DNA of 64,000 nt from a virus (IMGVR_UViG_3300034073_002120); one strand, 5' to 3'. Positions 1 to 14,962 are shown, numbered from the stretch's first letter. A program made the numbers and translations. Notes: generated by a model not told the origin, from the letters alone.

Positions 1-684
1 CACTACTACTTTTTTATTTTTGAATTTACCCATTAAGACAGTATCACCAATATTGACATCCATCGTAATATCTTCATTTATTGATTCGCCTAACTTTGCT
101 AATTTAAGTGTAATGAATTTGTAGATTGTTTCATCAAATTTTGGATATGCTTTTAAGAAATTTTTTCTCTTTTCATCATCACTACCTTTACTTAACCAAT
201 TACGAACATCAGTTCCACTAACTGCGTTTGGTTGAGCAGGTGAAGCATAAACGTATCCTTTATCTTTATACCCAAATTCAATTTTACCTTTATATTTTTC
301 AAAGTATTTACCACCCAAACGTTGTTTGTCTTTTTCACCAACAACAGTTATAAATCCAGTTGTAGTTTCATCGAAATTTTTAAGTATTTCAGTAGGAGCA
401 TAAGGATTCTTAACCTCAACTATTTTGTTTGATGGAATACCAAACATTTTAGTCATTATGGTTTTCTTTTCCTTAAAATTAAATGGTGATTTTTGATTAT
501 CGGTTTTATTAGATGTACCGATATACACTCTATCCTTACCAAACTTTTTTACAAGTCCTTGATAAGTTGCAAGGTGACCTTTGTGAAATGGTTGAAATCT
601 ACCTGAATATACTACAACAAAATCTTTTAACTCCTCTTCGGTTAAAAGTATTTGTTCCATCAGATATTTACTTAATTCATTCAT
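1..684 (-). CDS. HxGH nucleotidyltransferase (cytidylyltransferase-like), 3' end outside window
   Basis: Not in the ORF track. Manual translation from ATG at 684: MNELSKYLMEQILLTEEELKDFVVVYSGRFQPFHKGHLATY...VVGEKD...VSGTDVR; GRFQPFHKGH is the HxGH motif. Frame stays open to position 1. Confidence 0.8.
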   Translation of the reverse strand, partial: MNELSKYLMEQILLTEEELKDFVVVYSGRFQPFHKGHLATYQGLVKKFGKDRVYIGTSNKTDNQKSPFNFKEKKTIMTKMFGIPSNKIVEVKNPYAPTEILKNFDETTTGFITVVGEKDKQRLGGKYFEKYKGKIEFGYKDKGYVYASPAQPNAVSGTDVRNWLSKGSDDEKRKNFLKAYPKFDETIYKFITLKLAKLGESINEDITMDVNIGDTVLMGKFKNKKVVV

Positions 685-858: not shown

Positions 859-1537
859 TTTTTCTATTTGGGTCTTTAAAGTAAATTCTATACACATATC
901 TATTCCAATTTTCAATTTTAGTAACCGAATGGGATATTCCTGGTGTATTATAATATGAATCAAAAATTACTAATTGATTTTTTTTCGGTTTATAGGTATA
1001 AATAATATTTTTACCGGTTTCATCATCATAAAAAAGAACATCACCGCCAATATCACCCTCTTGCATATCAGTACAATATAAAACTGCAGTACATAATCTA
1101 CTATTACCAGGTGATGTATCGGAATGAATTCTCATTAAATAACCAGGACCATATTCGATTACCGATTGATATTCTATTTCTATGTTGTTATTATTATAAA
1201 TCTCTTTAATGAGATTATGTATATTTTTTGTTATTGTTTCTCGTGTTTGATTACTTAACATTATATCAGAATCACGTCTTAATAATTCATAATCTGTATC
1301 TATATCATAATTTTTATGAAACATTTCTTTTTCAATATCAGTAAAATCTTTATAAAATTTTTGATAAATACCGAAAGTTGTATTTGTTATATTGTTTGTT
1401 ACTGCAAATCTAACTGATTGATTTCCTTCACTTTTTTGGTCTATTATTTCATTAGTAATAGTATCAAATATATTTGTATCTATGACATCATCATAGATAA
1501 AAAATCTTTTAGCAGTATCTTCATATATTTTTATCAT
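845..1537 (-). CDS. 2OG-Fe(II) oxygenase (prolyl-hydroxylase-like)
   Basis: YGPGYLMRIHSD (HxD), CTAVLY, GGDVLF, NQLVIF, HSVTK...R distal His/Arg. Confidence 0.8.
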   Translation of the reverse strand: MIKIYEDTAKRFFIYDDVIDTNIFDTITNEIIDQKSEGNQSVRFAVTNNITNTTFGIYQKFYKDFTDIEKEMFHKNYDIDTDYELLRRDSDIMLSNQTRETITKNIHNLIKEIYNNNNIEIEYQSVIEYGPGYLMRIHSDTSPGNSRLCTAVLYCTDMQEGDIGGDVLFYDDETGKNIIYTYKPKKNQLVIFDSYYNTPGISHSVTKIENWNRYVYRIYFKDPNRKNELI

Positions 1538-2985
1538 AATAAATGTATTTCTTCATTATTGTTAATAATTTTATTAAGATTTTTCATATAAATATCAGCT
1601 ACATATTCATCAGTATATTTTAATAAATGATTTCTATTATACTCTAATATATGAAACATTTGTTTCATCATTTCATCCCATTCTTCGGTTGATTTAGTTA
1701 TTAGTGTTTTTATCAATTCATATACTTTAATAATTCTATCACTATTATTTTCAATATCATCATAACTTTCATCCCAAAAATCACTAAATGTTTTAAATCC
1801 ATAATTTTTAAGAGTTTTAAGAATACCAGGTCTACCTACTAATACAAATGGATGTAAATGAGCTATTGGTTTTAATGTTTTTTCTGAAATATATGTTCCC
1901 ATTTCATAAAATAACGTTTCTGCTACAATACTAAAATATGTTTTTTCATATATATCTTTTGTTTCAAACGCAAATCCCCATACTGAATCTAAATCATCAT
2001 AATCTACAACTCTCTTTTTTATTTTTGTTAAATTATGAAACCCCGTACTCATTTTATTTTTATAATGTTGTGGTTCTATATATGGGTTTCCATCATATCC
2101 ACCACCATTAACCAAATCCAATCCCGCATCTGGTGTATATAACATTTCTCCCATATCAAACGATGAAAGAGTATTATTTAATAACCCATCATTTTGTAAT
2201 AAAGATAAAATAACCAATCGATGTGGTCGTAATCTACGATTTAACATCAATGCTTTCTTTTCCCTATTTTTTAATTCAAGTAAATCATTTGTTTTTGTAA
2301 TTGAATTTATATTAGTATGACCGTTAAAATTCATTTCACTTACATCGTTCAATAAATCACGAGTTTCTTTACTTTTAGCAAATATTGGCCATGGATAACA
2401 AGTTGTTTTTAATAAATTTTCTGGATTATTAGTTTTTACATAATAATTTTTATACAATTCAGTAGTATTTGCAGATGCTGTGATTATCAATATCTTAGAT
2501 GGGTTTATATCTAATCTATCACAAGTTTTATGAATATTATCAAATAGTTCTGGTTTAATATCACCCTCACTACTATAATCAAATATTAAAAAAAAGTTTT
2601 TGGCCTTTAAATTTTCTTTTGCACGAGCTGATATGAAATCAAACGTATGTTTATTTTGATGATATGTAAAATCATCGCCAGTTGATACTAATAAATTTCC
2701 GAATGGTGCGATTGTGTAATAATAGACATCTGATGGGTTTCCTATTGTGTTAGTATTATCATCATATTGTAAATCATTTATATGATGGTCTTTTATACAC
2801 ATATCACCAATATTTAAATAACAATCATATACTGCTATTTGTAAATATTTTTTTGAAAACGCAGTAATAAAATCATTATCAATAAAAAAATTATTATCCC
2901 ACAAATCACTTGTAAAATTATAATTCAATCCATTTGGAATAAATCCACTTGGACCTAAAAAATCAAAAACTCTATGTATTTGCAT
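1534..2985 (-). CDS. putative glycosyltransferase, GT10-like paralog family (copy 1)
   Basis: KALMLNRRLRPHR and FSIVAET...YISEKTLKPI...PFVLVG...GFKTFSDFWDESYD, shared with 3 other ORFs. Likely start MQIH at 2985 (track: 3027). Confidence 0.55.
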   Translation of the reverse strand: MQIHRVFDFLGPSGFIPNGLNYNFTSDLWDNNFFIDNDFITAFSKKYLQIAVYDCYLNIGDMCIKDHHINDLQYDDNTNTIGNPSDVYYYTIAPFGNLLVSTGDDFTYHQNKHTFDFISARAKENLKAKNFFLIFDYSSEGDIKPELFDNIHKTCDRLDINPSKILIITASANTTELYKNYYVKTNNPENLLKTTCYPWPIFAKSKETRDLLNDVSEMNFNGHTNINSITKTNDLLELKNREKKALMLNRRLRPHRLVILSLLQNDGLLNNTLSSFDMGEMLYTPDAGLDLVNGGGYDGNPYIEPQHYKNKMSTGFHNLTKIKKRVVDYDDLDSVWGFAFETKDIYEKTYFSIVAETLFYEMGTYISEKTLKPIAHLHPFVLVGRPGILKTLKNYGFKTFSDFWDESYDDIENNSDRIIKVYELIKTLITKSTEEWDEMMKQMFHILEYNRNHLLKYTDEYVADIYMKNLNKIINNNEEIHLL

Positions 2986-3523
2986 AATATAATTCAGGAT
3001 ATTCAACCAATAGATGAATACCAACATTTTCTATTGCATATTTATAACTTAACTCAACATCTTGCCAAGTTTTTAAATCATGGAATTCAATATTTGGACA
3101 CATTGATTTAAATTGCTCAGTATAATTCCCTTTATGTTGATGACCTGGGTCTAATGGTTTATCAGAACCTTTACCAACTCTAATTAGGATATGTGGATTC
3201 CAAGTACCATCTGACATTAATCCGATTTTATCTAAATGATTCACAAGTTGATTAGTTGCACATATTAAAAAATCCCAACGTGGATAAAAACTTACTACTT
3301 TATGGCCATTCATAGCCAATCCTAAACTCATTCCCATTTGAGTTTCTTCCATAACAGGAACTTCAATCATTTTTTCTTTTGGTAATCCTTCAATAGTCTT
3401 TGACATTGGATTTCCATAATATACAATTTGTTGTCCTATAAAAATAGTAGATTCATCTTCCATTATAGTCTTCATAGCACTTGTCAATGCATCTACATAT
3501 GGTGTAAATTGTGGTGAACTCAT
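2972..3523 (-). CDS. TPP enzyme beta subunit (transketolase/E1-beta pyrimidine-binding domain only)
   Basis: FIGQ, PVMEETQMGMSLGLAMNG, NQLVNH, GHQH; 183 aa with no C-terminal domain. Confidence 0.8.
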   Translation of the reverse strand: MSSPQFTPYVDALTSAMKTIMEDESTIFIGQQIVYYGNPMSKTIEGLPKEKMIEVPVMEETQMGMSLGLAMNGHKVVSFYPRWDFLICATNQLVNHLDKIGLMSDGTWNPHILIRVGKGSDKPLDPGHQHKGNYTEQFKSMCPNIEFHDLKTWQDVELSYKYAIENVGIHLLVEYPELYYANT

Positions 3524-3526
3524 AAC

Positions 3527-4519
3527 TTATGGTTTTGAATTTGGATTATATTCGTTTTTATGTTCTTTATACCATTCGATGGTTTCTTTCAATGCCTGTT
3601 TTAAATCTCTTTTTGGTTTCCAACCTGCATCGTTTATTTTTTTAGATGAAAGTAATCTAACCGGAATCATCGGTGCCTTATTATTTACAAATTCGATTGG
3701 ATTAGTGTTTCCTTCAATTTCCTTAATCCACCCTAACACTTCATTAACACTATAACCCTTTCCATAAGCAACATTAAAAATATTGTATGTATCGTTGTTC
3801 TCAGCAACCCAAATAAATCCATCGGCCATATCTTCTACGTGCAATAAATCTCTGATTTCAGAACCATCGCCCCATACCGGAATTGGATTTAAATTATCTG
3901 CTACTTTACGAATGTTTGCGGGTGTAACATGACACTTTTCAAAATCAAATTTATCATTTGGTCCGAATGCGTTTGAAGGTCTAACAATTAAACATTGCAT
4001 TGGATTGTGAATTTGATGTGAAAAATAATCACAAAGTAATTCACCATATCTTTTCATATTACCAACTGCTCCATATATTGGGAATGTAGGTGTTGCATGA
4101 ACATTTATATCTTCCGTACAAAACTCATCCTTCATATCTGGATAAACTGTATTAGATGAAATGAATAAGAATTTCGTAACCCCATTTCTCCAACTTTGTT
4201 CCATCAAATTTACATTCATTTCTACATTTGGAGTAACGTGTAATAGAGGATTTTCTTTTGTATCTAATGCATTTGATGTATTTGCTGCACAATGAAATAC
4301 TACATCTACACCTTCGGAAACTTCTGCACAAAACTTTGCATCTTGTAAATTTCCTTTATAAAACGCAACATCAGATGTTCCTACGAAATCGTTTCTTAAA
4401 TTTCTACTATGAGATGTTGCTCGTAGGTTTCTATAACCTTTCTCCCATAATAATCTTAATAGATGTGAACCAATAAATCCACTTGCACCAGTAACTAAAA
4501 TCTTATCCGTTTTTTTCAT
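3527..4519 (-). CDS. NAD-dependent NDP-sugar epimerase/reductase (GDP-fucose synthase-like extended SDR)
   Basis: TGASGFIG, FHCAA, FISS, RPSNAFGPND, VWGDGSEIRDLLHVED. Confidence 0.85.
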   Translation of the reverse strand: MKKTDKILVTGASGFIGSHLLRLLWEKGYRNLRATSHSRNLRNDFVGTSDVAFYKGNLQDAKFCAEVSEGVDVVFHCAANTSNALDTKENPLLHVTPNVEMNVNLMEQSWRNGVTKFLFISSNTVYPDMKDEFCTEDINVHATPTFPIYGAVGNMKRYGELLCDYFSHQIHNPMQCLIVRPSNAFGPNDKFDFEKCHVTPANIRKVADNLNPIPVWGDGSEIRDLLHVEDMADGFIWVAENNDTYNIFNVAYGKGYSVNEVLGWIKEIEGNTNPIEFVNNKAPMIPVRLLSSKKINDAGWKPKRDLKQALKETIEWYKEHKNEYNPNSKP

Positions 4520-4522
4520 AAC

Positions 4523-5488
4523 TTATTTTTTGTATTCGTTTAAATAATAATCTATCGTATGTTTCAATCCTGTCTTTAAGGATATTTTTTGTTTGATTCC
4601 AAATGATTCTGCACGTTCCGTACTCATCAATCGCTTCTCATCTCCATTTGGTTTAGTTGGGTCCCATTCAATTTGAACTTTAACTCCGTACATTTCTTCA
4701 TAGATTTCTACAAGAGTTTCTGCAAGTTCTTTGATTGTTACTCCAGTTCCACTACCTAAATTTATTGGTTGCGTAATACCTTGTTCGTATGCTTGAATAA
4801 TTCCATCTGCAACATCACCTGCATAGATAAAATCTCTAATAGGTGAACCATCTCCCCAACACACTAATGGATGTTCTTTCTCACCAAATAATCGTTTAAT
4901 TAAAGATGCGATGACGGTAGATTCTGGACCGAAATTATCATGTCTACCATAAATGTTTGCAGGTCTTACAATTGATGCTTTATTCCAATCATATGATACT
5001 GAATATACTTCTGCTTGAAGTTCTCCAAGTCTTTTTGCCCAACCTGCGTATTTATCTTTTTCTGATGGGAAGGTTTTCCAAACATCATCTTCGTAAAATA
5101 CTTCCGCCGGTTGATATACTCCAACTGTCGATGTGTAAACATACCATTCTACATTTTCTAAACGTGCAGCTTCCATCATATTGGTATTAAACTGCAACAT
5201 CGGTACAAAATAATCTGCAGGTTGTTCTGCTGCTCTTTTTGGAGAACCCTTTACACCTGCAATGTGGAAAATAACATCTTGTCCTTCCACTACTCTTTTA
5301 CAATTTTTGAATTCTCTTAAATCAGCTTTAATAAACTGATAATCACTCTCTTTGTATTTTTCTAATTGATTTAATGGTTCTACAATATCTACGGCGGTTA
5401 CGATTGCACCTCTTTGTAAACATTTTTCTACCATATAATTACCAACCAATCCGTTGGCACCCGTTATCAAAACCTTTTTACCATTCAT
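4523..5488 (-). CDS. NAD-dependent NDP-sugar epimerase/reductase (GDP-fucose synthase-like extended SDR)
   Basis: TGANGLVG, FHIAG, YTSTVGVY, RPANIYGRHDNF, WGDGSPIRDFIY. Confidence 0.85.
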   Translation of the reverse strand: MNGKKVLITGANGLVGNYMVEKCLQRGAIVTAVDIVEPLNQLEKYKESDYQFIKADLREFKNCKRVVEGQDVIFHIAGVKGSPKRAAEQPADYFVPMLQFNTNMMEAARLENVEWYVYTSTVGVYQPAEVFYEDDVWKTFPSEKDKYAGWAKRLGELQAEVYSVSYDWNKASIVRPANIYGRHDNFGPESTVIASLIKRLFGEKEHPLVCWGDGSPIRDFIYAGDVADGIIQAYEQGITQPINLGSGTGVTIKELAETLVEIYEEMYGVKVQIEWDPTKPNGDEKRLMSTERAESFGIKQKISLKTGLKHTIDYYLNEYKK

Positions 5489-6620
5489 TTTCTATTGTTT
5501 TTAATATTTTATCTAAACTATCAATTTCCATCGAATCAAATAGTTGTTTATTATATATACATATATGTTTTACATTTTTATATAATTCATTTAACTCTTC
5601 GATTGGTTTTGAATTAAATTCTTTTACAATTTTCAATATACTGAAAAATCGTTCTTTAGGGTCTACAATCAAATCATAACTTTCATCCCAAAATTCATTA
5701 AATGTTTTAAATCCATATGAACGTAATTTTTCTAAATATCCATATGGTCCAAATACAATAAATGGTTGGTAGTTAATTATAGGTTTTAATATTTTCTCTG
5801 AAATAAATAATTCATTTAAATCATAAGATGTTTCGGTTACTAAATGTATACAAGAATTTAAAAATAATTCTTTTTTAAATGTATTGGTTACACTAAAATT
5901 AGATTTATCTTTTATGTTGAATGTATCTAATTCAATTGGTAAGTGTTTATTAAAAAATTCAATTGGTATTTTTTTATCATCTAACTGGTATATTAATGAA
6001 TATCCTTCGGTTTTCAATAAAAATGTAAAATATGAATCTGAATAATCGTTTGTAAGATATTCATAAAATAATGATATTCTATGAGGTTTATCGTTATTAC
6101 GATTAAAACATAAAAATTTTTTATTCCTAAATACGTCTAATTCAGATATTTCAATTTCTTCACTAACATATCCTAACGAATTTTTATCACTAATAAAATT
6201 ATCGTTTTTATGCCAAATAGCTTCTTCTAAGAAAAAATCAAAAGTAAATATATTAGGTAAACGAGTATTACTATCTAATAAATAATATTTGTTTTTTGGT
6301 AATTTTGTTTGAATATAATCATATCCAAGTTCAAATGTGGGTTCATTGCATGGGTCTGGCATGCTTGTAAACAACATTTTTACATCATTTGTTTTTATGT
6401 AATCAAATATACTATCTGGTATATGTAATAAACTTTCAAATTTATGATTTGATTCTATTAATAATATATTTTTTTTGGTTTCATCCAACTTACCATCTAA
6501 AGTATAAGAGTATTTTTTTTCTATAATATAATTAAAAATTGGGCCTTGTTGTGAGTAACGCTCATCTCCATTATAATCTAATGAATTTTTTAAAAATACA
6601 AAATTTAAATTGTCGTTCAT
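5478..6620 (-). CDS. putative glycosyltransferase, GT10-like paralog family (copy 2)
   Basis: KFLCFNRNNDKPHR; IHLVTETS...FISEKILKPI...PFIVFG...GFKTFNEFWDESYD. Confidence 0.55.
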   Translation of the reverse strand: MNDNLNFVFLKNSLDYNGDERYSQQGPIFNYIIEKKYSYTLDGKLDETKKNILLIESNHKFESLLHIPDSIFDYIKTNDVKMLFTSMPDPCNEPTFELGYDYIQTKLPKNKYYLLDSNTRLPNIFTFDFFLEEAIWHKNDNFISDKNSLGYVSEEIEISELDVFRNKKFLCFNRNNDKPHRISLFYEYLTNDYSDSYFTFLLKTEGYSLIYQLDDKKIPIEFFNKHLPIELDTFNIKDKSNFSVTNTFKKELFLNSCIHLVTETSYDLNELFISEKILKPIINYQPFIVFGPYGYLEKLRSYGFKTFNEFWDESYDLIVDPKERFFSILKIVKEFNSKPIEELNELYKNVKHICIYNKQLFDSMEIDSLDKILKTIENEW

Positions 6621-7576
6621 TATCTTCTGTCTATTTTTTTTGTACTATTTCTAACAAATTTATTTTCATGTTTAAAACTATCAAATAATGATTCATTTTG
6701 AACATATCCCTTTTCACACATCTTATCAAACATAAAATCACCAAATTCTATTTGTGGAGAATATAAGTGTAGGAGTGAAATATTTAGTTTTATATATTGT
6801 TTTATTCCATCTATTATAGATTGTTTATCTCTAAAATCTGATTCAGTAATTTCCCAATCAGCATTAATAAATTTACCATTCACTAAATCAATATATGTTC
6901 CAACTTTATCTACAAAAATAGATTCAAAAAATATTATATTATCTTTAAATGTTGATTCATAAAATGGATATAATCCTTTTGCATCTTCTATTGGTAAATT
7001 ACCCTTATATGTAAAATATCTTCCTTTGAATTTATAACCATAAACCTTTTCCAAATAATATTGTGTTGTTCCTTGAAATCCACTATCTACCATTATGATA
7101 TTTTTCGCAGAACCAATTACATCATCTATATATTTTTTATACTCAATTCTAAGTTCATTTGATTTGATAATAATCGTTTCAATCCATTCACTTAAATTCG
7201 GTAATTCCTTTGTTGTATCAATCCACTGTTTTGTAGTGTTTACTTTTACACCAAATCTATCAAATAATAAATCATTAATATCACCCTCATACCTATGTAG
7301 TTTAAATGAAGCATATATTTCAGTTTCCGTTGTAAATGAAATCATCGATGCTAATTTACGAGAAGTTTTGAAATATACACTCTTTGGTAAATCGTATTTA
7401 TCTCTATAAATTTCCCAAATATCTTTTAGAAAATATCCTTCTCGTGAATTAAATAAAACTAAATCGACATCATTTAGATTATCAATTAACCATTTAAAGT
7501 AATTGAATACCAAAGGGCCAATATATGTTGAACCTAATTCTTCTAATGTTTGAGGATTTCTATTAATCAATAACAT
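6620..7576 (-). CDS. putative glycan phosphoribosyltransferase (gPRT-like)
   Basis: LFNSREGYFLK, YFKTSR and IMVDSGFQGTTQ, resembling the PRPP-binding loop of ribofuranosyltransferase PRT domains. Confidence 0.55.
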   Translation of the reverse strand: MLLINRNPQTLEELGSTYIGPLVFNYFKWLIDNLNDVDLVLFNSREGYFLKDIWEIYRDKYDLPKSVYFKTSRKLASMISFTTETEIYASFKLHRYEGDINDLLFDRFGVKVNTTKQWIDTTKELPNLSEWIETIIIKSNELRIEYKKYIDDVIGSAKNIIMVDSGFQGTTQYYLEKVYGYKFKGRYFTYKGNLPIEDAKGLYPFYESTFKDNIIFFESIFVDKVGTYIDLVNGKFINADWEITESDFRDKQSIIDGIKQYIKLNISLLHLYSPQIEFGDFMFDKMCEKGYVQNESLFDSFKHENKFVRNSTKKIDRR

Positions 7577-8003
7577 AAACTTTAAAACAAGGTATTCCTA
7601 ATTCAACCCACATATCGATTATTCGTTGGTCATCATCGTATGCACAAAATACATCTGATTTAATGTGCGTTTTATACATCTTCTTTTTGTAGATTGGTGC
7701 TTTTAAAAAATTATCTTCCCAACTTCGCATAATTAATTGGTCATATTCTATATCATATTTTTTTAACCATTCAATCGTAACTCCTCTAACTGACTCCGGT
7801 CGACCTGTAAGTAGTATAACCTCAAAACCATCTTTCTTATATCTTTTTGCTAAATCAATCATAGGATAAAATGGGTCATCCATCAAAATATTATTAGGAA
7901 TATGTGCTGCTTCCCAATCTATTTTTCCATTTGGCATTGTTGCTAGAGCAAATCGTATGTTACTATTACATAATGTATTATCTATATCAATTATTACTTT
8001 CAT
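7563..8003 (-). CDS. HAD-superfamily phosphatase (PNKP-phosphatase-like)
   Basis: IIDIDNT (DxDxT), LLTGR, K and YDD motifs. Confidence 0.8.
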   Translation of the reverse strand: MKVIIDIDNTLCNSNIRFALATMPNGKIDWEAAHIPNNILMDDPFYPMIDLAKRYKKDGFEVILLTGRPESVRGVTIEWLKKYDIEYDQLIMRSWEDNFLKAPIYKKKMYKTHIKSDVFCAYDDDQRIIDMWVELGIPCFKVYVID

Positions 8004-9205
8004 AAATCTCGTATTCCCTGTTTTTCATACCCAACTGGTATTTTAATTCCAGTATTACACCCATTACAATTATCACAAAATGTAATATATCCTAAATTTG
8101 TATATCCCAAATCAAACTTTAATAATTCCTCTTTTGAAATTTTGTTTATATCCACATAATCATTTTCACTTAATGGAAATAACTTTGTTCTAACGGCCGA
8201 AGTGTTTAGATGACAATAATAAAACTTACCATCGTTCAATCCTCTAAATGGTGCGGTGCATGAATCAAAGTGTTTTATCAATTTATCAGTTGGTAAGTTT
8301 TTCTTAACTCTCAAATCACCAAAATCATACCATTCAATTTGGTTTCTAACATAATGATTAATATTGTTTTCTTTATATGAATCCAATACTTTTACAACCT
8401 TTTTCTTTATATGGTCTAACTTATCACTATAATCACTAACACTCAAAATAACATCATTATCTTTTAACAATTGAATGATACTATCTTTTGGTAAAATTGT
8501 GCCGTTTGTAGTGATTATTAGTTTATCAATTTTAGTTATGTAGTTTTCTAATAGGTGTTTAATTACATTTTCTATATTTGGATACAAAAATGGTTCTCCA
8601 CCAACTAAATGAAATACACTTACATAATCTACAATTTTAAAATAAGAATCTATATCAGAAATTATAGTGTCCAACTCTCTATGAATTGGAAATTCGTAAT
8701 GTGGCATGAACATATTGCAATGAGAACAATTCAAACTACACTTTTCAGTAACCAACATATCGGATTGAAATATATGAACTATATTTTTATGTTTATATGG
8801 CCAAATTGAAGCTATATTCTTATACCAAGTCCATTTTACACCATTTTCTTCTAAAAATTGTTTATATTTTTGTTTATAAACATCGGTTGTTATAATAACT
8901 TGCGTATTTGATGTAATTTCGAAATCATCTATGTGAATTAGTTGAATATTCTCTCTTTTTATCTCAATATTTTTTGATTGGTGATAAAATGAACTGATTT
9001 CGTTGATGTTATTTAACGTAGTTTGATTTTTTACATCATGGTCAACTATATATTTGATTTTTAATACGTTTTCGCCTAATAGTAAATCAATAGTTCTGAT
9101 GAATTGAATGCATTCTTTACTTGCACCAAATAAAACATATTCAGTATCTAAGTTCCAATCTGAAATGAACTTATCAAAACTATGTAACTCATCATTATAT
9201 AACAT
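8000..9205 (-). CDS. radical SAM protein with N-terminal Rossmann-like segment
   Basis: CSLNCSHC, GGEPFLYP, ITTNGT, C-terminal Cys cluster (C...YYC...CDNC). Confidence 0.85.
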   Translation of the reverse strand: MLYNDELHSFDKFISDWNLDTEYVLFGASKECIQFIRTIDLLLGENVLKIKYIVDHDVKNQTTLNNINEISSFYHQSKNIEIKRENIQLIHIDDFEITSNTQVIITTDVYKQKYKQFLEENGVKWTWYKNIASIWPYKHKNIVHIFQSDMLVTEKCSLNCSHCNMFMPHYEFPIHRELDTIISDIDSYFKIVDYVSVFHLVGGEPFLYPNIENVIKHLLENYITKIDKLIITTNGTILPKDSIIQLLKDNDVILSVSDYSDKLDHIKKKVVKVLDSYKENNINHYVRNQIEWYDFGDLRVKKNLPTDKLIKHFDSCTAPFRGLNDGKFYYCHLNTSAVRTKLFPLSENDYVDINKISKEELLKFDLGYTNLGYITFCDNCNGCNTGIKIPVGYEKQGIRDL

Positions 9206-9209
9206 ATTG

Positions 9210-9848
9210 TTAAAATACTACCCATTTTCCAGTTCCGTAGTGTGGATATTTTGATTTATATTGATAATAAATCACATCTTCAGGTATTTCTCTTTGAATT
9301 CCACCCCACGTATCCAAAGTTGGAGTATTTGTTGAAACACCATTATCTTCTACAACAAAATATAGTGGTAAATTATTATTTCTAGCGTATTTATGAACCT
9401 CATAAAAGATTCCGGTCTCAAAAGTCATATCACCGATGAAACACCACACTTTTTTATCTTCACCTTTTAACTTAATTGATTCAGCAACACCCAATGCAAT
9501 AGGTAAAATACCTGTTACAATTGCCGATGAATAAAAATTACACTTTTTGTTTACAATAGTGATACTTTTTCCATCCAAAATTTCGCCCATCAACCAACTT
9601 CTATCAATTCCATGCAACAAAGCATGGTAATGTGACCTCCAGGTCGAAAATACCCAGTCATCTACACCTACTTTTTTGAAAATTTCAATAAGTTGTTCTT
9701 CATTTCCGTTTGATAAGTGTATTGGGCCTCGGATTTTTCCACTTTCCCAATGCTTTATAACATCATCTTCGAACTGAATTAGGTCTTCAGGTGTTAAATT
9801 TCCATCTACCCATCTATCTTCGTGATAATTTAAGTTTTTAATTTCCAT
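9210..9848 (-). CDS. TPP enzyme alpha subunit (E1-alpha-like, minimal)
   Basis: GPIHLSNGNE, STWRSHYH, and the TPP-binding motif GDMTFETG...EDN. Confidence 0.85.
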   Translation of the reverse strand: MEIKNLNYHEDRWVDGNLTPEDLIQFEDDVIKHWESGKIRGPIHLSNGNEEQLIEIFKKVGVDDWVFSTWRSHYHALLHGIDRSWLMGEILDGKSITIVNKKCNFYSSAIVTGILPIALGVAESIKLKGEDKKVWCFIGDMTFETGIFYEVHKYARNNNLPLYFVVEDNGVSTNTPTLDTWGGIQREIPEDVIYYQYKSKYPHYGTGKWVVF

Positions 9849-10422
9849 TTCTATCCCTTTTTGATAATATTGGTTGTGCTACAGGCCACTCCACATTAAA
9901 TCTTTTATCGTTAAATACTATTGTCTTTTGCTTGTTCTCATCATTATACTCACCATCATACGCCATCTTATAAAAAAAGATAGAATCATCTTCCATCACA
10001 TAGTGGCCATTGGCAAACATAGGTGGAATTAAGACTTGTGTTGCGGTTTCCGGCGAAATTATAAAAGATTCCCATTTACCATAGGTTGGGGATTTAGGAC
10101 GAACATCCATAACTACCAAATATATCTTTCCTTGTAAACAACTTACCAATTTCCAAGTCTTCTCATCGTAATGCATTCCTCTCAATACCCCAATCTTTGA
10201 TTTTGAGTATCTATCATGTTTAAATTGTAACCCATTATTGCGTTCAGCGGCGGGCAACAATCTATCATAATAATCTGCATGATAAGTTGTAGAGATTGAA
10301 CCACGATATTCGTAATATGTGGATGGTTGTACGATTTTAACCTCTGGTAAAACCGAACCATTATAATAGTGGAAATCGTTCCAACTTCTCTCTTTGTAAA
10401 ATATACTACGTCCTTGTGCCAT
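9838..10422 (-). CDS. rmlC: dTDP-4-dehydrorhamnose 3,5-epimerase family (cupin)
   Basis: GVLRGMHY, KLVSCLQGKIYLVVMDVRPKSPTYGKW, IPPMFANGH, WP...ILSKRD. Confidence 0.85.
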   Translation of the reverse strand: MAQGRSIFYKERSWNDFHYYNGSVLPEVKIVQPSTYYEYRGSISTTYHADYYDRLLPAAERNNGLQFKHDRYSKSKIGVLRGMHYDEKTWKLVSCLQGKIYLVVMDVRPKSPTYGKWESFIISPETATQVLIPPMFANGHYVMEDDSIFFYKMAYDGEYNDENKQKTIVFNDKRFNVEWPVAQPILSKRDRNGN

Positions 10423-11371
10423 AACCTAATGGAAATCCATTCCTATATTTTGATGATAAATCTTGTATTAAAATTGTATAAGTTTTTATAAGTTCTTCAA
10501 TACCATCTTCCAAACTCCAATCTGGTTTCCAACCAGTATCTTCTATTTTTTTATTCGAAACTACATAATCTCTTTTATCGGGGTCTTCATAAAAATCTGA
10601 ATATGTAATTGCAAAGTTTGGTACAAATTCTTTAATTTTTTCTACCAATTGTTGTTTAGTTAAATTAGCGTTTGATAGACCTACATTAAATACTTCACCA
10701 CTAAAATTATCATAATTATTTATCATATATTCAAATGTTTTAGCAACATCTCTAATATGAATGTAATTACGAGTAAAATTTTTCTCAAAAATAGTAATGT
10801 ATTTATCAGTTAGTGCTTTGTAAACAAATTCGTTTACTAATAAATCCATTCTCATTCTAGGAGATGAACCAAAGACGGTAGCAAGTCTTATTGAAATACC
10901 ACCAATTGCAAGAACCTCTCTTTCTGCTTTAACTTTGGTCACTCCATAGTGGGAAATTGGGTTGAGTGGACTTTCTTCGGTACACTCACCATTCTCTCCT
11001 ATCCCATATCCACTATTTGTGTTTGGATATATAACTTTTGTTCTTGTATTTTTTGCTAACTCACAAACTTTTCTAACGTGTTCGTAATTTACTGCAGTTG
11101 CAAGGTCTTTATCTCTATCACATGCAGGAAATCCTACAATTGCTGCTAAGGGGATTACAACATCAAATGTAGTAACTAAATCTTCTAACAATTTATGATT
11201 TCTAACATCACCATAAATAAAATTAAATCGTTTGTTATGTGAGTAATGAATTAAAGATGTTTGATTATACATCAAATTATCTAATATAGTAACACTATAA
11301 CCATTATTCAACAATCGCTCAGTCAAAACCGAACCTAAGTATCCTGCACCTCCTGTAATTAAAACTCTCAT
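10406..11371 (-). CDS. NAD-dependent epimerase/dehydratase (extended SDR)
   Basis: TGGAGYLGS, LAAIVG, YGVTK (YxxxK), RLATVFGSSPRMRMDL. Confidence 0.9.
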   Translation of the reverse strand: MRVLITGGAGYLGSVLTERLLNNGYSVTILDNLMYNQTSLIHYSHNKRFNFIYGDVRNHKLLEDLVTTFDVVIPLAAIVGFPACDRDKDLATAVNYEHVRKVCELAKNTRTKVIYPNTNSGYGIGENGECTEESPLNPISHYGVTKVKAEREVLAIGGISIRLATVFGSSPRMRMDLLVNEFVYKALTDKYITIFEKNFTRNYIHIRDVAKTFEYMINNYDNFSGEVFNVGLSNANLTKQQLVEKIKEFVPNFAITYSDFYEDPDKRDYVVSNKKIEDTGWKPDWSLEDGIEELIKTYTILIQDLSSKYRNGFPLGYGTRT

Positions 11372-11372
11372 A

Positions 11373-12788
11373 TTAATTTAAATTTTCTAATAATATTTTT
11401 TGTGTTCTATTTGTTGTATAAAATGAATGTAATAATTTTTTATTGTGAATCAAAACAGATTCCATATTTTTTATCATTTCAATCATTTCTGATTGTGTTT
11501 TATTACAAAGTTTTTTTACCTCTATGATTATCATATCACAGCGTTTTTTGTAATTTTTTTCAGAATCATAACTTTCATCCCAAAAATCACTAAACGTTTT
11601 AAAACCTAATGATTTTAAATATCTTAATGTGTTTGGATTACCTACAACAAAAAATGGATGAAGATTCATTATTGGTTTCATAGTTTTTTCAGTAATAAAA
11701 AGATATTGAGATTCTGCATTAGTTTCACCTACAATTGTAAAAAAAGTTTCCTCATATTCTTTATTTCTACTTAAAAAATTATGAAACCAAGCTATTTTTT
11801 CACCGTCTTCTTCATCTATATTTAATGGGTAATAATTTGTATAAGTAGTTCTAAGTTTATTGAAATCACCCTCATTCAAATCTATCTCATCTGCAGAACC
11901 AGCAAGTTCGTTCATTCTATCTTCAAATTCATCATTTTTAATAAGAGAAACATATCCATTATTTAATAAATTTTCTTCCCATAATTTCATTACAAAATAT
12001 GGACGATGTAACCTCGATGTATTTCTATTATACATTAAGAAATATTTTGGTTTTTCTTCAAATTTTAATTCAGTTTGTAATGAGTAAACATACTCCTCTG
12101 AAAGTATTTGATTATTTTTTGCTGCACGAATTTCTGATATAAATTTGCCTGAATCATTAATGTATTGGTCGTTTATAAAACGTTTTATTCTATTTGTATT
12201 ATATGGATTAATTTTATTATTATCCATTTCCATCAATAGTACATTATTACCACTAACAAATACTTTACCATCGTCATTTATTTCGTATTTATCCAAAAAT
12301 GAATTAATATTTTGAAATAAATTGTAACTATGTTCGTATGAACCTTCCCAAATATCAATAAAAAGAATTTTAAAATTTTTATTTTCTTTGAATAACTTAA
12401 TTAGTTTAGGCGATAACATATTATCTAAACTATTATATTCTGTTCCATAATATTCAAACAATACTTGATTAGCAAATGATTCAAAACATATTACATATAA
12501 GTCGTTTTCATTTATAGTTTCATCAGTTAGCTCGGTCGTTAATATTGTATCAATTGTTTTTCCACGTTCTAATAGTTTAGTTTGATATGATATTGGAAAC
12601 GATTTATATTCGGTAGGATTATCCATATTTGTTATAAACACCACATCCTTTTCATCACATATCGTATCTATATGAGATAAGCAATTATATGGAAATGAAT
12701 ATTTGTTATACCCTAATGGTAAAATACCATTTGGTGTTTTAAACTCATATACAAAATGAATATTTTTTTTTAATTCTCGGTCATCCAT
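11373..12788 (-). CDS. putative glycosyltransferase, GT10-like paralog family (copy 3)
   Basis: KYFLMYNRNTSRLHR; FTIVGETNAE...FITEKTMKPI...PFFVVG...GFKTFSDFWDESYD. Confidence 0.55.
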   Translation of the reverse strand: MDDRELKKNIHFVYEFKTPNGILPLGYNKYSFPYNCLSHIDTICDEKDVVFITNMDNPTEYKSFPISYQTKLLERGKTIDTILTTELTDETINENDLYVICFESFANQVLFEYYGTEYNSLDNMLSPKLIKLFKENKNFKILFIDIWEGSYEHSYNLFQNINSFLDKYEINDDGKVFVSGNNVLLMEMDNNKINPYNTNRIKRFINDQYINDSGKFISEIRAAKNNQILSEEYVYSLQTELKFEEKPKYFLMYNRNTSRLHRPYFVMKLWEENLLNNGYVSLIKNDEFEDRMNELAGSADEIDLNEGDFNKLRTTYTNYYPLNIDEEDGEKIAWFHNFLSRNKEYEETFFTIVGETNAESQYLFITEKTMKPIMNLHPFFVVGNPNTLRYLKSLGFKTFSDFWDESYDSEKNYKKRCDMIIIEVKKLCNKTQSEMIEMIKNMESVLIHNKKLLHSFYTTNRTQKILLENLN

Positions 12789-13507
12789 CGTTTATCATAA
12801 TTTATTAAGTTATTACCATTTTTAGTAATATCTAAAACTTTATATGGAGTTAATTTTTCAAAATTGTAAACAGCAACTGGTCTGTCTGATTTTTCCCATT
12901 TTCCATCAAAAGCTCTTTTAATATCTTTAGAATCCATATATGTTTGAAACACTCCACAAAATGATATATCTCCTTTGAAATAATGTCTATGTTCTTCTGG
13001 ACAACTATCTAATGGATTTGCAACACCTACCCACAACCAAGATGATGAATAATCTGCTAAATCATATATGAATTCTTGACTTATTTCAAAATCATTTGCA
13101 CTAAGTTTAAATAATTTTTTAGTTAAATTAAATGAAATAGAAATATCCATATAATCGTTAGAAATATCAGTTTCTGCATTTAATGGTAATAAAATTTGTT
13201 CGTATGTGGCGTTTTCCGAAGGTTCACCGATGATTTCAGTATCGTTACGTTTTTCTGTCCAACACATTCCTTTCAATATTCGATAATTATTACCTGTTTT
13301 TGCTATTGATATTCCTAAATGTTTTCCATTTTTTATCATAATACCAACCTCTTGCGTTTTAGTATTAGGTATTAAAAAATCCCAATCAACTTTTACTCTC
13401 ACTAAAAAAGTAAAATCACCAAGATGTAAATCGTTTGAATTGACTCTACTTAGACCATATTTACTTGTAGGTGGTATAAACCACGCATCATTTCCGTTGA
13501 ATATCAT
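12770..13507 (-). CDS. LamG/concanavalin A-like domain protein
   Basis: DFTFLVRVK, WLWVGVAN, YFKGDISFCGVF, AVYNFE...VLDITKNGNN; similar to the inserts in the two GT7 ORFs. Confidence 0.6.
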   Translation of the reverse strand: MIFNGNDAWFIPPTSKYGLSRVNSNDLHLGDFTFLVRVKVDWDFLIPNTKTQEVGIMIKNGKHLGISIAKTGNNYRILKGMCWTEKRNDTEIIGEPSENATYEQILLPLNAETDISNDYMDISISFNLTKKLFKLSANDFEISQEFIYDLADYSSSWLWVGVANPLDSCPEEHRHYFKGDISFCGVFQTYMDSKDIKRAFDGKWEKSDRPVAVYNFEKLTPYKVLDITKNGNNLINYDKRWMTEN

Positions 13508-14937: not shown

Positions 14938-14962
14938 AACTTAGTTTATATATGTATATATA

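What the first reader, a model, noticed from the sequence alone, without database searches (positions are those of the whole stretch)
2972..9848. Minimal split thiamine-diphosphate enzyme, possibly making a branched-chain sugar
Seen: a 212-aa alpha subunit (9210..9848, GD...N motif) and a 183-aa beta subunit (2972..3523) lacking the C-terminal domain; no E2/E3 genes in the window; both sit among NDP-keto-sugar enzymes. Established: E1-like alpha/beta pairs or YerE-type TPP enzymes add two-carbon units from pyruvate to NDP-4-keto sugars (yersiniose; avilamycin eurekanate). Inference: the phage makes a C-branched sugar rather than a metabolic pyruvate dehydrogenase.
Basis: partly seen in the sequence, partly recalled or inferred. 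Interest (0 to 1): 0.6.

Follow-up and report, generated by a model that had tools for sequence, protein, structure and literature searches.

The report
Mini thiamine enzyme in heptose pathway
A large marine phage carries the two halves of a stripped-down thiamine-dependent enzyme among genes that turn a seven-carbon sugar nucleotide into a reactive 4-keto form, so it most likely builds an unusual carbon-branched sugar rather than burning pyruvate; the same uncharacterised mini-enzyme is common in marine phages and many bacteria.

Summary
Observation confirmed. ORFs 9210-9848(-) (212 aa) and 2972-3523(-) (183 aa) are the PP and PYR halves of an E1-type thiamine-diphosphate (ThDP) enzyme. Both keep the cofactor and catalytic motifs. 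Both lack everything that ties E1 to E2/lipoate.

They form one enzyme:
- They are fused in cyanophages S-SM2 and P-TIM68 and in metagenomic proteins.
- They are adjacent in about 50 cellular genomes.
- They co-occur in every viral locus that extends far enough.

The mini form is a separate clade from classical E1-alpha. Its lengths are fixed at about 200 + 180 aa.

New here: the conserved partners are not generic deoxyhexose enzymes. The gene overlapping alpha best matches C. jejuni GDP-4-keto-heptose 3,5-epimerases. The next gene matches PDB 6VO6 at 371 bits; from memory this is Cj1427, the GDP-heptose C4-dehydrogenase. Cellular cassettes add GmhA/HddA/GmhB/HddC-like genes.

The likely acceptor is therefore a GDP-4-keto-heptose, and the likely reaction is C4 acyl branching. 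No chemistry has been measured, and the donor 2-oxo acid is unknown.

First readers noted the same pair in several other genomes of this scan.

Verdict: new variant of a known kind.

The parts
9210..9848 (-). Mini-E1 alpha: ThDP diphosphate-binding (PP) domain, 212 aa. Keeps H44, R71/H73, G139-D140...N169 and C-terminal H203, and ends there.
   Evidence: Pfam E1_dh 1.7e-13. PDB E1-alpha alignment. Family alignment A1. AF2 pLDDT 93. VIA Z 19.3, rmsd 2.6-2.8 A, 197 aligned to human E1-alpha residues 12-268 of about 362.
2972..3523 (-). Mini-E1 beta: aminopyrimidine-binding (PYR) domain only, 183 aa. Has catalytic E59 and Q129-H130. No C-terminal domain.
   Evidence: Transket_pyr 24.4 bits. NF006667 E 9.5e-12. 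PDB E1-beta hits. Alignment A3. The homologous half of fusion P0252 superposes on E1-beta residues 1-180 at Z 24, rmsd about 2.2 A.
9838..10422 (-). Cupin C3/C5-epimerase of the GDP-4-keto-heptose type (Cj1430/MlghB-like). Overlaps the start of alpha by 11 nt.
   Evidence: 163 bits to 8dco/8db5 (GDP-D-glycero-4-keto-D-lyxo-heptose 3,5-epimerase) against at most 94 bits to dTDP RmlC. Found in 73 of the 80 viral loci and directly upstream of alpha in most of them.
10406..11371 (-). SDR 'S3': Cj1427-type nucleotide-heptose C4-dehydrogenase, the maker of the 4-keto acceptor.
   Evidence: E 4.5e-110, 371 bits over residues 2-301 to PDB 6vo6/6vo8. A strong ortholog is present in 60 of 80 viral and 31 of 57 cellular mini-E1 loci. 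Cj1427 function from PMC10680097.
4523..5488 (-). SDR 'S2': GDP-fucose-synthase-like reductase/epimerase. Candidate reducer of the C4 keto group or of the new branch carbonyl.
   Evidence: Best PDB and NCBIfam hits are GDP-L-fucose synthases. Present in 74 of 80 viral loci.
3527..4519 (-). SDR 'S1': GDP-sugar epimerase/reductase-like. Sits immediately upstream of beta in most phage loci.
   Evidence: PDB hits to SDR 8rdg, GDP-mannose 3,5-epimerase and GDP-fucose synthases, including C. jejuni heptose C4-reductase entries. The S1-then-BETA adjacency is seen.
5478..9205 (-). Variable insert that separates the two halves in this phage: radical SAM 8000-9205, HAD phosphatase 7563-8003, unknown 318 aa 6620-7576, unknown 380 aa 5478-6620.
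   Evidence: Pfam. The rSAM/HAD/318-aa part of the block is present in only 12-13 of 80 related loci (the 380-aa type is in 62) and absent where alpha and beta are 11 bp to 3 kb apart.
1534..3027 (-). Unknown 497-aa protein (u497 family, paralogs at 5478-6620 and 11373-12788) directly downstream of beta. Candidate partner or transferase.
   Evidence: No Pfam or NCBIfam hit. In phage L058 a homologous domain is fused to the C-terminus of beta (E 2e-12). Follows beta in most loci.
11373..17859 (-). Conserved upstream part of the cluster: u471, 245-aa protein, twitch radical SAM 13504-14937, and two GT7-LamG glycosyltransferases 14963-16429 and 16429-17859.
   Evidence: Pfam and NCBIfam. The order GT7 GT7 rSAM u245 u471 S3 RmlC ALPHA recurs in many viral loci.

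Best explanation
The two ORFs encode the PP and PYR halves of a minimal E1-type ThDP enzyme. By analogy with E1 it is probably an alpha2beta2 assembly.

Shown:
- Both halves have the E1/transketolase catalytic-core fold and keep the cofactor-binding and catalytic residues.
- They lack every element that couples E1 to E2/lipoate.
- They always travel together and are fused in some genomes.
- Their conserved neighbours are a Cj1427-type C4-dehydrogenase and a Cj1430-type C3/C5-epimerase, both of which act on GDP-D-glycero-manno-heptose.

Inferred mechanism:
1. Host-made GDP-heptose is oxidised at C4 by S3.
2. The 4-keto-heptose is epimerised by the cupin.
3. The mini-E1 decarboxylates a 2-oxo acid, with pyruvate as the default guess, to the ThDP-bound acyl-anion equivalent.
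4. It adds that unit to the C4 carbonyl, giving a GDP-4-C-acyl-heptose.
5. An SDR (S1 or S2) then reduces a carbonyl.
6. The cluster's glycosyltransferases install the sugar on a virion or cell-surface glycan.
For: One enzyme:
- Natural PP-to-PYR fusions exist in S-SM2 (402 aa), P-TIM68 (381 aa), P0252 and P0333.
- In the 80 viral loci, every case without a separate beta stops before the position where beta normally lies. The alpha-beta gap ranges from 11 bp to more than 9 kb.
- Alpha and beta are adjacent in 53 of 57 cellular loci.

Fold:
- Fusion model pLDDT 89. PYR half against E1-beta 1-180, Z 24. Whole model against transketolase domains I+II, Z 22, rmsd 3.1-3.5 A, about 357 aligned.
- Window alpha pLDDT 93, Z 19.3 against E1-alpha 12-268.

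Catalytic residues are conserved family-wide. An intein is inserted right before the GDM motif in P0268.

Not PDH:
- Separate clade, branch length 0.82, SH-aLRT 98.
- Far below NCBIfam cutoffs.
- No E2, lipoyl or TKC domain in the complete relative genome (control 84).

Acceptor:
- Cupin scores 163 bits to GDP-4-keto-heptose epimerases.
- S3 scores 371 bits to 6vo6.
- Pathway described in PMC10680097.
- Alpha overlaps the epimerase gene by 11 nt.
- Cellular cassettes carry HddA/HddC/GmhA/GmhB-like genes. In the 36 loci with at least 6 kb on both sides of alpha, a GHMP kinase occurs in 31 and an NTP_transferase in 24.

Chemistry precedent: E1-type Pau11/12 and AviB1/B2, and YerE/ErwE, add acyl branches at C4 of 4-keto sugars, followed by ketoreduction.
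Against: - No activity, product or glycan has been measured for any member.
- The donor acid is unknown.
- The known E1-type branchers are full-length (325 and 345 aa), and their relatedness to the mini clade was not tested.
- S3, the epimerase and a reductase alone form a complete C. jejuni-type heptose epimerisation route. The ThDP enzyme could therefore serve a different step.
- In the cyanophage-type context there is no RmlC-like gene. The neighbours are a Zn-ADH, a PfkB kinase and a CTP_transf-like nucleotidyltransferase, so the substrate may differ between subfamilies.
- This phage and its complete relative lack GmhA and HddC-type genes, so GDP-heptose supply by the host is assumed.
- Equating 6VO6 with Cj1427 rests on my memory. 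The paper could not be fetched.
Confidence: 0.55

Rival explanations
1. Mini-transketolase or DXP-synthase-like enzyme. It makes or interconverts a ketose phosphate, for example sedoheptulose-7-phosphate, to feed nucleotide-heptose synthesis, rather than acting on the nucleotide sugar.
For: - Whole-chain fold is closest to transketolase domains I+II (Z about 22), and DXPS tops Foldseek.
- Cellular and cyanophage cassettes carry GmhA, kinase and nucleotidyltransferase genes next to it.
- S-SM2 and P-TIM68 annotate the fusion as a transketolase-region protein.
Against: - Sequence is E1-like, not transketolase-like. There is no Transketolase_N hit, and the transketolase NCBIfam model scores 22 bits against a cutoff of 488.
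- Per-domain structure ranks E1-alpha and E1-beta above transketolase and DXPS.
- This phage clade keeps the pair while lacking GmhA and HddC-type genes entirely.
- The pair is locked to the 4-keto-heptose enzymes.
- Hosts already have transketolase.
Confidence: 0.1
2. Plain 2-oxo-acid decarboxylase, comparable in minimal build to sulfopyruvate or phosphonopyruvate decarboxylases. It yields an aldehyde that other enzymes use, for example the Zn-ADH in cyanophages. Alternatively it handles 2-oxoglutarate linked to the Cj1427-type dehydrogenase's ping-pong cycle.
For: - A bare PP+PYR architecture is enough for simple decarboxylases (established knowledge of ThDP families).
- A Zn-ADH sits next to the fused form in S-SM2, P-TIM68 and L009.
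- Cj1427 consumes 2-oxoglutarate (PMC10680097).
Against: - No ADH accompanies the pair in this phage clade or in most cellular cassettes.
- Both active-site histidines that E1 uses toward its electrophilic acceptor are conserved.
- Tight operon coupling to the epimerase argues for a nucleotide-sugar substrate.
Confidence: 0.12
3. ThDP-dependent C-C chemistry at another site of the heptose. Examples are acyloin-type extension or cleavage of the C6-C7 side chain, or addition to a C3 keto or 3-deoxy-4-keto intermediate as in cellular cassettes with an RfbH-like enzyme. This would give a chain-extended or shortened sugar rather than a C4-branched one.
For: - Heptose side chains offer alpha-hydroxy-carbonyl chemistry.
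- Cellular cassettes add an RfbH-like PLP enzyme and a B12 radical SAM. Phage clusters add several radical SAM enzymes.
- ErwE-type enzymes use long functionalised donors.
Against: - The only keto-forming enzyme conserved with the pair is the C4-dehydrogenase type.
- All characterised sugar-branching ThDP enzymes attack C4.
Confidence: 0.13
4. Auxiliary metabolic pyruvate/2-oxo-acid dehydrogenase E1, or decayed remnants of one.
For: Best Pfam and NCBIfam names are PDH E1 alpha and beta, and JGI annotates relatives that way.
Against: - Lacks the E2-binding domain and the E1-alpha tail.
- No E2 or lipoyl domain in a complete relative genome.
- Distinct clade.
- Lengths are fixed and identity is 77-93% across thousands of relatives, so the genes are not decaying.
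- Always found in sugar clusters.
Confidence: 0.02

Closest known systems
E1-type sugar-branching pairs of actinomycete antibiotics: AviB1/AviB2 (avilamycin), Pau11/Pau12 = Plm8/Plm9 (paulomycin), EvdU5/EvdS3 (everninomicin)
   Same: - Two-subunit, PDH-E1-like ThDP enzyme encoded inside a sugar pathway, with no E2/E3.
- Proposed to take a C2 unit from pyruvate and attach it at C4 of a 4-keto sugar that has passed a 3,5-epimerase.
- Followed by ketoreduction.
   Different: - Those subunits are full E1 size (Pau11 325 aa, Pau12 345 aa). Here they are 212 and 183 aa, lacking the E1-alpha tail and the whole E1-beta C-terminal domain.
- The acceptor here is probably a GDP-heptose rather than a TDP/UDP deoxyhexose or pentose.
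- Sequence relationship was not tested.
YerE / ErwE / MyGE (yersiniose, erwiniose; acetolactate-synthase-like ThDP carboligases)
   Same: Works alike: a decarboxylated 2-oxo acid is added to the C4 carbonyl of a nucleotide-4-keto sugar, then the side chain is reduced. The donor can be pyruvate or a longer acid.
   Different: A different ThDP superfamily branch. These are single-chain PYR-TH3-PP enzymes, and YerE is a flavoprotein. The enzyme here is E1-like, with PP and PYR on separate chains and no middle domain.
Heterotetrameric 2-oxo acid dehydrogenase E1 (PDH, BCKDH, acetoin dehydrogenase)
   Same: - Closest sequence and fold for each half: Z 19 for alpha, Z 24 for beta.
- Same ThDP/Mg motif, activating Glu and both active-site His positions.
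   Different: - No E1-beta C-terminal (E2-binding) domain.
- E1-alpha stops about 5-9 residues after the active-site His.
- No E2, E3 or lipoyl partner.
- Separate clade.
- Far below curated family cutoffs.
Transketolase, including split-gene transketolase (PDB 6yak)
   Same: The PP-PYR arrangement of the fused form matches transketolase domains I+II (Z about 22). Splitting into two genes has a precedent.
   Different: No domain III, no Transketolase_N sequence signature, and E1-like active-site residues.
C. jejuni capsular GDP-heptose modification route (Cj1427 dehydrogenase, Cj1430 epimerase, Cj1428 reductase)
   Same: The partner genes S3 and the cupin are close homologs (371 and 163 bits). 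S1 and S2 resemble the C4-reductases.
   Different: The C. jejuni route has no ThDP enzyme. No paper combining manno-heptose and ThDP was found. Here a ThDP enzyme is inserted directly after the epimerase.

Membership tests
2-oxo acid dehydrogenase E1 (alpha2beta2 type) | PP domain with the GDG...N ThDP/Mg motif | tested here: met
   G139-D140...N169 is invariant in the family. E1_dh 1.7e-13. Z 19.3 to E1-alpha.
2-oxo acid dehydrogenase E1 (alpha2beta2 type) | PYR domain with the ThDP-activating Glu | tested here: met
   E59 is invariant. Z 24 to E1-beta residues 1-180 for the homologous half of fusion P0252.
2-oxo acid dehydrogenase E1 (alpha2beta2 type) | E1-beta C-terminal (Transketolase_C) domain that binds E2 | tested here: not met
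   Beta ends at 183 aa. The structural match stops at E1-beta residue about 180 of about 325. No PF02780 in the complete relative genome.
2-oxo acid dehydrogenase E1 (alpha2beta2 type) | Full-length E1-alpha, including the region after the active-site His | tested here: not met
   Alpha residues 1-208 map to E1-alpha residues 12-268 of about 362, with about 60 loop residues deleted.
2-oxo acid dehydrogenase E1 (alpha2beta2 type) | E2 (lipoyl acyltransferase) partner | tested here: not met
   No PF00198 or PF00364 in the 287-kb complete relative. The positive control PF00676 was found.
2-oxo acid dehydrogenase E1 (alpha2beta2 type) | Reaches curated family cutoffs and groups with classical E1 | tested here: not met
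   TIGR03182 scores 85 against a cutoff of 394. NF006667 scores 44 against 321. Separate clade, SH-aLRT 98.
E1-type sugar-branching pairs (AviB1/B2, Pau11/12) | E1-like alpha and beta encoded in a keto-sugar pathway, without E2/E3 | tested here: met
E1-type sugar-branching pairs (AviB1/B2, Pau11/12) | Full-size E1 subunits (about 325 and 345 aa) | tested here: not met
   212 and 183 aa here, against 325 and 345 aa for Pau11 and Pau12.
E1-type sugar-branching pairs (AviB1/B2, Pau11/12) | Sequence or phylogenetic grouping with AviB1/Pau11 | not tested
The Treede 2005 paper is not held.
E1-type sugar-branching pairs (AviB1/B2, Pau11/12) | Formation of a C-acyl branch on the sugar | not testable with these tools
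   Needs enzymology or glycan analysis.
YerE-type (decarboxylase-family) carboligases | Single chain PYR-TH3-PP (TPP_enzyme_N/M/C) | tested here: not met
   Only a weak TPP_enzyme_C hit (24 bits), which lies under the E1_dh match. There is no N or M domain.
Transketolase | PP+PYR core arrangement | tested here: met
   Fusion model against transketolase residues 11-477: Z about 22, rmsd 3.1-3.5 A.
Transketolase | Domain III and the transketolase sequence signature | tested here: not met
   No PF02780. No Transketolase_N hit. NF004559 scores 22 bits against a cutoff of 488.
Cj1427/Cj1430/Cj1428-type GDP-heptose modification pathway (context) | C4-dehydrogenase and C3/C5-epimerase orthologs | tested here: met
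   371 bits to 6vo6 and 163 bits to 8dco. That 6vo6 is Cj1427 is recalled from memory, not verified.
Cj1427/Cj1430/Cj1428-type GDP-heptose modification pathway (context) | GDP-heptose supply genes (GmhA, HddA, GmhB, HddC) | tested here: inconclusive
   Absent from the phage and its complete relative. Present beside the pair in cellular cassettes, but only GmhB exceeds its curated cutoff.

The most novel reading that the evidence does not exclude
The mini-E1 is the smallest working form of the E1/transketolase superfamily, about 200 + 180 aa and catalytic core only. It defines an undescribed step of heptose metabolism: ThDP-dependent attachment of an acyl branch to GDP-4-keto-heptose. The products would be branched sugars of nine or more carbons that have not been reported. 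Abundant marine myophages, probably pelagiphages, and many bacterial phyla would use them to decorate virions or cell surfaces.
Probability: 0.35. Interest if true: 0.75.

Novelty: new variant of a known kind. Interest (0 to 1): 0.6.

Why it matters
If the chemistry holds, four things follow.
- It would show that the E1-alpha tail and the E1-beta C-terminal domain are dispensable for E1-type ThDP catalysis. That gives a compact two-chain, or roughly 400-aa fused, carboligase scaffold for biocatalysis.
- It would add a carbon-branching step to the well-studied GDP-heptose modification pathways and predict a new class of branched higher-carbon sugars.
- It would correct a very common mis-annotation. 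Thousands of metagenomic genes, and genes in cultured cyanophages, are currently labelled "pyruvate dehydrogenase E1" or "transketolase region", and could be misread as central-carbon auxiliary metabolic genes.
- It would point to specific glycan chemistry behind the large LPS-type gene clusters of marine myophages, which matters for phage-host recognition in SAR11-type hosts.

Tried and rejected
Searches and look-ups that led nowhere:
- The DNA-level search of the 7.6-kb region against 50,697 phage records found nothing. Only protein-level searches reach relatives.
- No whole genome is held for the window. The complete relative L012/G001 was used instead.
A 12-sequence alignment worked.
- P0350 (APH kinase-alpha fusion) and P0325 gave no usable context.
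- Treede 2005 and Huddleston 2020 are not held. So AviB sizes were taken indirectly from Pau11/12, and the link between 6VO6 and Cj1427 stays unverified.
- Literature searches for ThDP together with manno-heptose, or for E1 components in O-antigen clusters, gave no relevant prior description. One search was malformed.

Readings considered and rejected:
- PDH auxiliary metabolic gene: no E2 or lipoyl domain, truncated subunits, separate clade.
- Pseudogene or remnant: fixed length and 77-93% identity across thousands of relatives.
- Phosphonate pathway (phosphonopyruvate-decarboxylase-like): the enzyme is E1-type, not decarboxylase-family. No PEP-mutase-type hit appeared among the neighbours scanned.
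- dTDP-rhamnose-type pathway: the cupin scores far higher to GDP-heptose epimerases than to RmlC.

Technical note: Foldseek whole-chain ranking put DXPS first, but with rmsd about 18 A, meaning only one domain was superposed. VIA per-domain alignment was used instead.

Full report
**1. Observation**

The window is an AT-rich (about 30% GC) tailed-phage genome segment. Every gene of 100 aa or more lies on the minus strand, and the window contains baseplate-wedge, tail-lysozyme and endolysin genes.

The two ORFs exist exactly as described: 9210-9848(-), 212 aa, and 2972-3523(-), 183 aa.

Alpha:
- It hits Pfam E1_dh (E 1.7e-13), but only over profile positions 7-168 of 300.
- It aligns to human PDH E1-alpha residues about 60-206.

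Beta:
- It hits Transket_pyr at 24.4 bits, just below the gathering score of 27.
- It hits the NCBIfam E1-beta model NF006667 (E 9.5e-12) over positions 6-144 of 327.
- It also hits PDB E1-beta chains.

Both subunits score far below the curated equivalog cutoffs: 85 against 394 bits for alpha, and 44 against 321 bits for beta.

The short lengths are genuine.
- Among 6,492 significant alpha relatives, the best 120 are all 212-231 aa at 77-87% identity.
- The best 120 beta relatives are 167-184 aa at 67-93% identity.

**2. The two ORFs encode one enzyme**

Three independent lines support this.

(i) Fusions. In the cultured cyanophages S-SM2 (402 aa) and P-TIM68 (381 aa), one gene covers both halves in the order PP then PYR. 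It is annotated "transketolase central region-containing protein". The metagenomic proteins P0252 (408 aa) and P0333 (401 aa) have the same build. On the tree, fusion arose at least twice.

(ii) Co-occurrence. In 80 viral loci fetched with the alpha family, every locus without a separate beta ends, or reaches the 10-kb flank limit, before the place where beta normally lies. The gap between alpha and beta ranges from 11 bp (L058, L076, L080) to more than 9 kb. "RmlC-like then ALPHA" and "SDR S1 then BETA" are the stable adjacencies. The 5.7-kb separation in this window comes from an inserted block (radical SAM, HAD, 318-aa and 380-aa unknowns). The radical SAM, HAD and 318-aa genes of that block occur in only 12-13 of the 80 loci, whereas the 380-aa type is common (62 of 80).

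(iii) Cellular genomes. Alpha (about 200 aa) and beta (about 178 aa) are immediate neighbours in 53 of 57 loci. These span Nitrospira, Burkholderiales (including the isolates Massilia sp. LXY-6 and Herbaspirillum sp.), Verrucomicrobiota, SAR116, Pelagibacteraceae, CPR bacteria and archaea.

**3. Anatomy**

Fusion model. AlphaFold2 of the natural fusion P0252 is confident (pLDDT 89.1, pTM 0.89), with only the linker disordered.
- Its C-terminal half superposes on the PYR domain of E1-beta (chain residues about 1-180 of about 325-338) at Z about 24, rmsd 2.0-2.6 A.
- It stops exactly where the E2-binding C-terminal domain of E1-beta would begin.
- The whole chain superposes on transketolase domains I+II at Z about 22, rmsd 3.1-3.5 A, about 357 residues aligned.

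Window alpha. It folds at pLDDT 93. Residues 1-208 superpose on human E1-alpha 12-268 (Z 19.3, rmsd 2.6-2.8 A, 197 aligned), on BCKDH E1-alpha 33-296, and on the Geobacillus enzyme 22-276. So about 60 loop residues and the last 95 or so residues of E1-alpha are missing.

Conserved residues across the family:
- Alpha: H44, R71, H73, G139-D140, E167, N169, and H203 in a C-terminal YPH-x-G-x-G motif.
- Beta: E59 (the ThDP-activating Glu), R82, H96 and Q129-H130.

By the ends of the structural alignments, H203 falls at the position of the E1-alpha active-site histidine. This is His291-alpha in BCKDH, named in the titles of PDB 1OLS and 1OLX. Beta H130 aligns with the "QHS" histidine of E1-beta. 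This residue mapping is inference from alignment ranges, not from a residue-level superposition.

In P0268 an intein interrupts the protein between the residues aligned to F137 and G139, directly before the Mg-ThDP motif. That is the kind of essential site inteins favour.

**4. Not a pyruvate dehydrogenase**

- In a maximum-likelihood tree of 98 sequences, all mini-alphas (cellular, phage and fused) lie on one side of a branch of length 0.82 (SH-aLRT 98), away from 23 classical E1-alpha. The one exception by label, L151, is a long-ORF call next to a 178-aa beta.
- Identity drops from 44-60% within the mini family to 28-35% with partial coverage for ordinary E1-alpha.
- The complete genome of the closest relative (L012 record, 287,455 bp, CheckV 100%, alpha 95% identical) has no 2-oxoacid_dh, Biotin_lipoyl or Transketolase_C domain. 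The same method does find its single E1_dh gene.

**5. What it works on**

The gene that overlaps the start of alpha by 11 nt is a cupin epimerase.
- It scores 163 bits to the C. jejuni GDP-D-glycero-4-keto-D-lyxo-heptose 3,5-epimerases (8dco, 8db5, and also 7m14).
- It scores only up to 94 bits to genuine dTDP-4-dehydrorhamnose epimerases.

The next gene upstream (S3) matches PDB 6vo6/6vo8 at E 4.5e-110, 371 bits over 300 residues.
[quoted passage not shown] The structure paper could not be opened, so this link is from memory.
- The pathway itself is documented in PMC10680097. Cj1427 makes GDP-D-glycero-4-keto-heptose, recycling its bound NADH with 2-oxoglutarate. Cj1430 epimerises C3/C5. Cj1428 reduces C4.

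S1 and S2 resemble GDP-fucose-synthase-type reductases and GDP-mannose 3,5-epimerase.

A strong S3 ortholog accompanies the pair in 60 of 80 viral loci and 31 of 57 cellular loci, and many of the cellular contigs are short.

Cellular cassettes tie the pair to heptose nucleotides directly.
- In Massilia the run is: HddA-like kinase, GDP-fucose-synthase-like SDR, alpha, beta, RfbH-like PLP enzyme, HddC-like nucleotidyltransferase, GmhA, S3-type SDR, GmhB. Each is NCBIfam's top hit, but only GmhB is above its cutoff.
- A Pelagibacteraceae single-cell genome has GmhA, alpha, beta, GHMP kinase, DegT, B12 radical SAM, cupin and an S3-type SDR.
- Among the 36 cellular loci with at least 6 kb on both sides, 35 have beta, 31 a GHMP kinase, 27 DegT, 25 a strong S3, 25 a B12 radical SAM and 24 an NTP_transferase.

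The phage clade itself has none of the supply genes, so it would draw on host GDP-heptose. The phage alphas are monophyletic (support 95), and their sister group is mostly Pelagibacteraceae (support 96). That fits an AT-rich pelagimyophage. Such phages are known to carry large LPS-type gene sets (PMC7029224).

**6. Mechanism proposed**

Shown:
- A minimal ThDP-binding heteromer with intact catalytic residues.
- Obligate pairing of the two halves.
- Obligate association with enzymes that generate and epimerise a GDP-4-keto-heptose.

Inferred:
- The enzyme decarboxylates a 2-oxo acid and adds the acyl-anion equivalent to the C4 carbonyl.
- YerE and ErwE do this on CDP-3,6-dideoxy-4-keto-glucose (PMC9306805).
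- The same is proposed for the E1-type pairs AviB1/B2, Pau11/12 = Plm8/9 and EvdU5/S3.
- In paulomycin the 3,5-epimerase product is the proposed acceptor, which parallels the epimerase-then-alpha coupling here.
- A following ketoreduction, possibly by S1 or S2, is the norm.

Unknown:
- The donor acid.
- The stereochemistry.
- The roles of the radical SAM enzymes and of the u497/u380/u471 family.
- The final glycan target.

**7. Rivals**

- A transketolase-like or DXPS-like supplier of ketose phosphates fits the fold and the heptose-supply neighbours. It conflicts with the E1-like sequence and active site. It also conflicts with the fact that this phage clade keeps the pair but has no supply genes.
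- A plain decarboxylase fits the minimal build and the Zn-ADH neighbour in cyanophages. That neighbour is absent here.
- C-C chemistry at another position of the heptose cannot be excluded.
- A metabolic PDH is excluded for practical purposes.

**8. Novelty**

E1-type ThDP pairs in sugar branching are known, but they are full-length (325 and 345 aa), and they act in deoxyhexose or pentose pathways of actinomycetes. I found no description of a catalytic-core-only E1, nor of any ThDP enzyme in a GDP-heptose pathway. That search covers only the held library.

The family is very large: more than 532 viral contigs, 121 clusters at the 50% level with E <= 1e-30, and many bacterial phyla. It is currently annotated as PDH E1 or transketolase.

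First readers of this scan flagged the same pair, with the same reading, in several other genomes. Those notes were unchecked and are not independent support.

I file it as a new variant of a known kind.

Noticed in passing
L058:10602-12335 (+); window 1534-3027 (-): In a 333-kb phage contig the beta PYR domain is fused to a roughly 400-aa C-terminal region. That region is homologous to the window's unknown 497-aa protein, which follows beta (E 2e-12). This is a second fusion link, tying the u497/u380/u471 paralog family (no Pfam or NCBIfam hit) to the ThDP enzyme.
   Followed up: partly
P0268 (metagenomic alpha homolog, 550 aa): A mini-alpha is interrupted by an intein of about 356 aa, inserted between the residues aligned to F137 and G139. 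That is directly before the GDM ThDP/Mg-binding motif.
   Followed up: yes
P0350 (552 aa, metagenome): An APH-family kinase domain is fused N-terminally to a mini-alpha. The contig was too short and its DNA unavailable, so no context could be read.
   Followed up: partly
L001:11983-13191 (S-SM2), L002:12049-13194 (P-TIM68), L009: The fused form in cultured cyanophages sits in a different context: Zn-ADH, PfkB kinase, SDR epimerase, CTP_transf-like nucleotidyltransferase and SIS isomerases, with no RmlC-like gene. This subfamily may use another substrate. It is a deep separate clade on the tree.
   Followed up: partly
LR756501.1 322608-324805: A 735-kb uncultured megaphage record encodes both halves (42% and 32% identity) about 1.1 kb apart on the same strand, with beta upstream.
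   Followed up: no
L103 (Massilia), L133 (Pelagibacteraceae), L007: Cellular cassettes regularly add an RfbH-like DegT-family PLP enzyme (27 of 36 loci) and a B12-binding radical SAM (25 of 36) next to the pair. This suggests C3-deoxygenation or amination, and C-methylation, of the same sugar.
   Followed up: partly
window 13504-14937 (-): A 477-aa twitch-domain radical SAM (NF033640, 360 bits against a cutoff of 170) is conserved upstream of S3 in most related phage loci, sometimes in two or three copies. Its function is unknown.
   Followed up: no
window 57828-59558 (-), 61903-62859 (-), 61021-61638 (-): The window also encodes a NodU/CmcH-type carbamoyltransferase, a SAM-synthetase-like protein and a peptide deformylase. 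In L058 a carbamoyltransferase lies directly after the beta fusion, so the sugar may be carbamoylated. The SAM synthetase could serve the many radical SAM enzymes and methyltransferases.
   Followed up: no
window 1-684 (-) and L003:17569-20642: A CTP_transf_like (HIGH-type nucleotidyltransferase) domain starts a very long ORF immediately downstream of the sugar cluster. This holds both here and in related phages.
   Followed up: no
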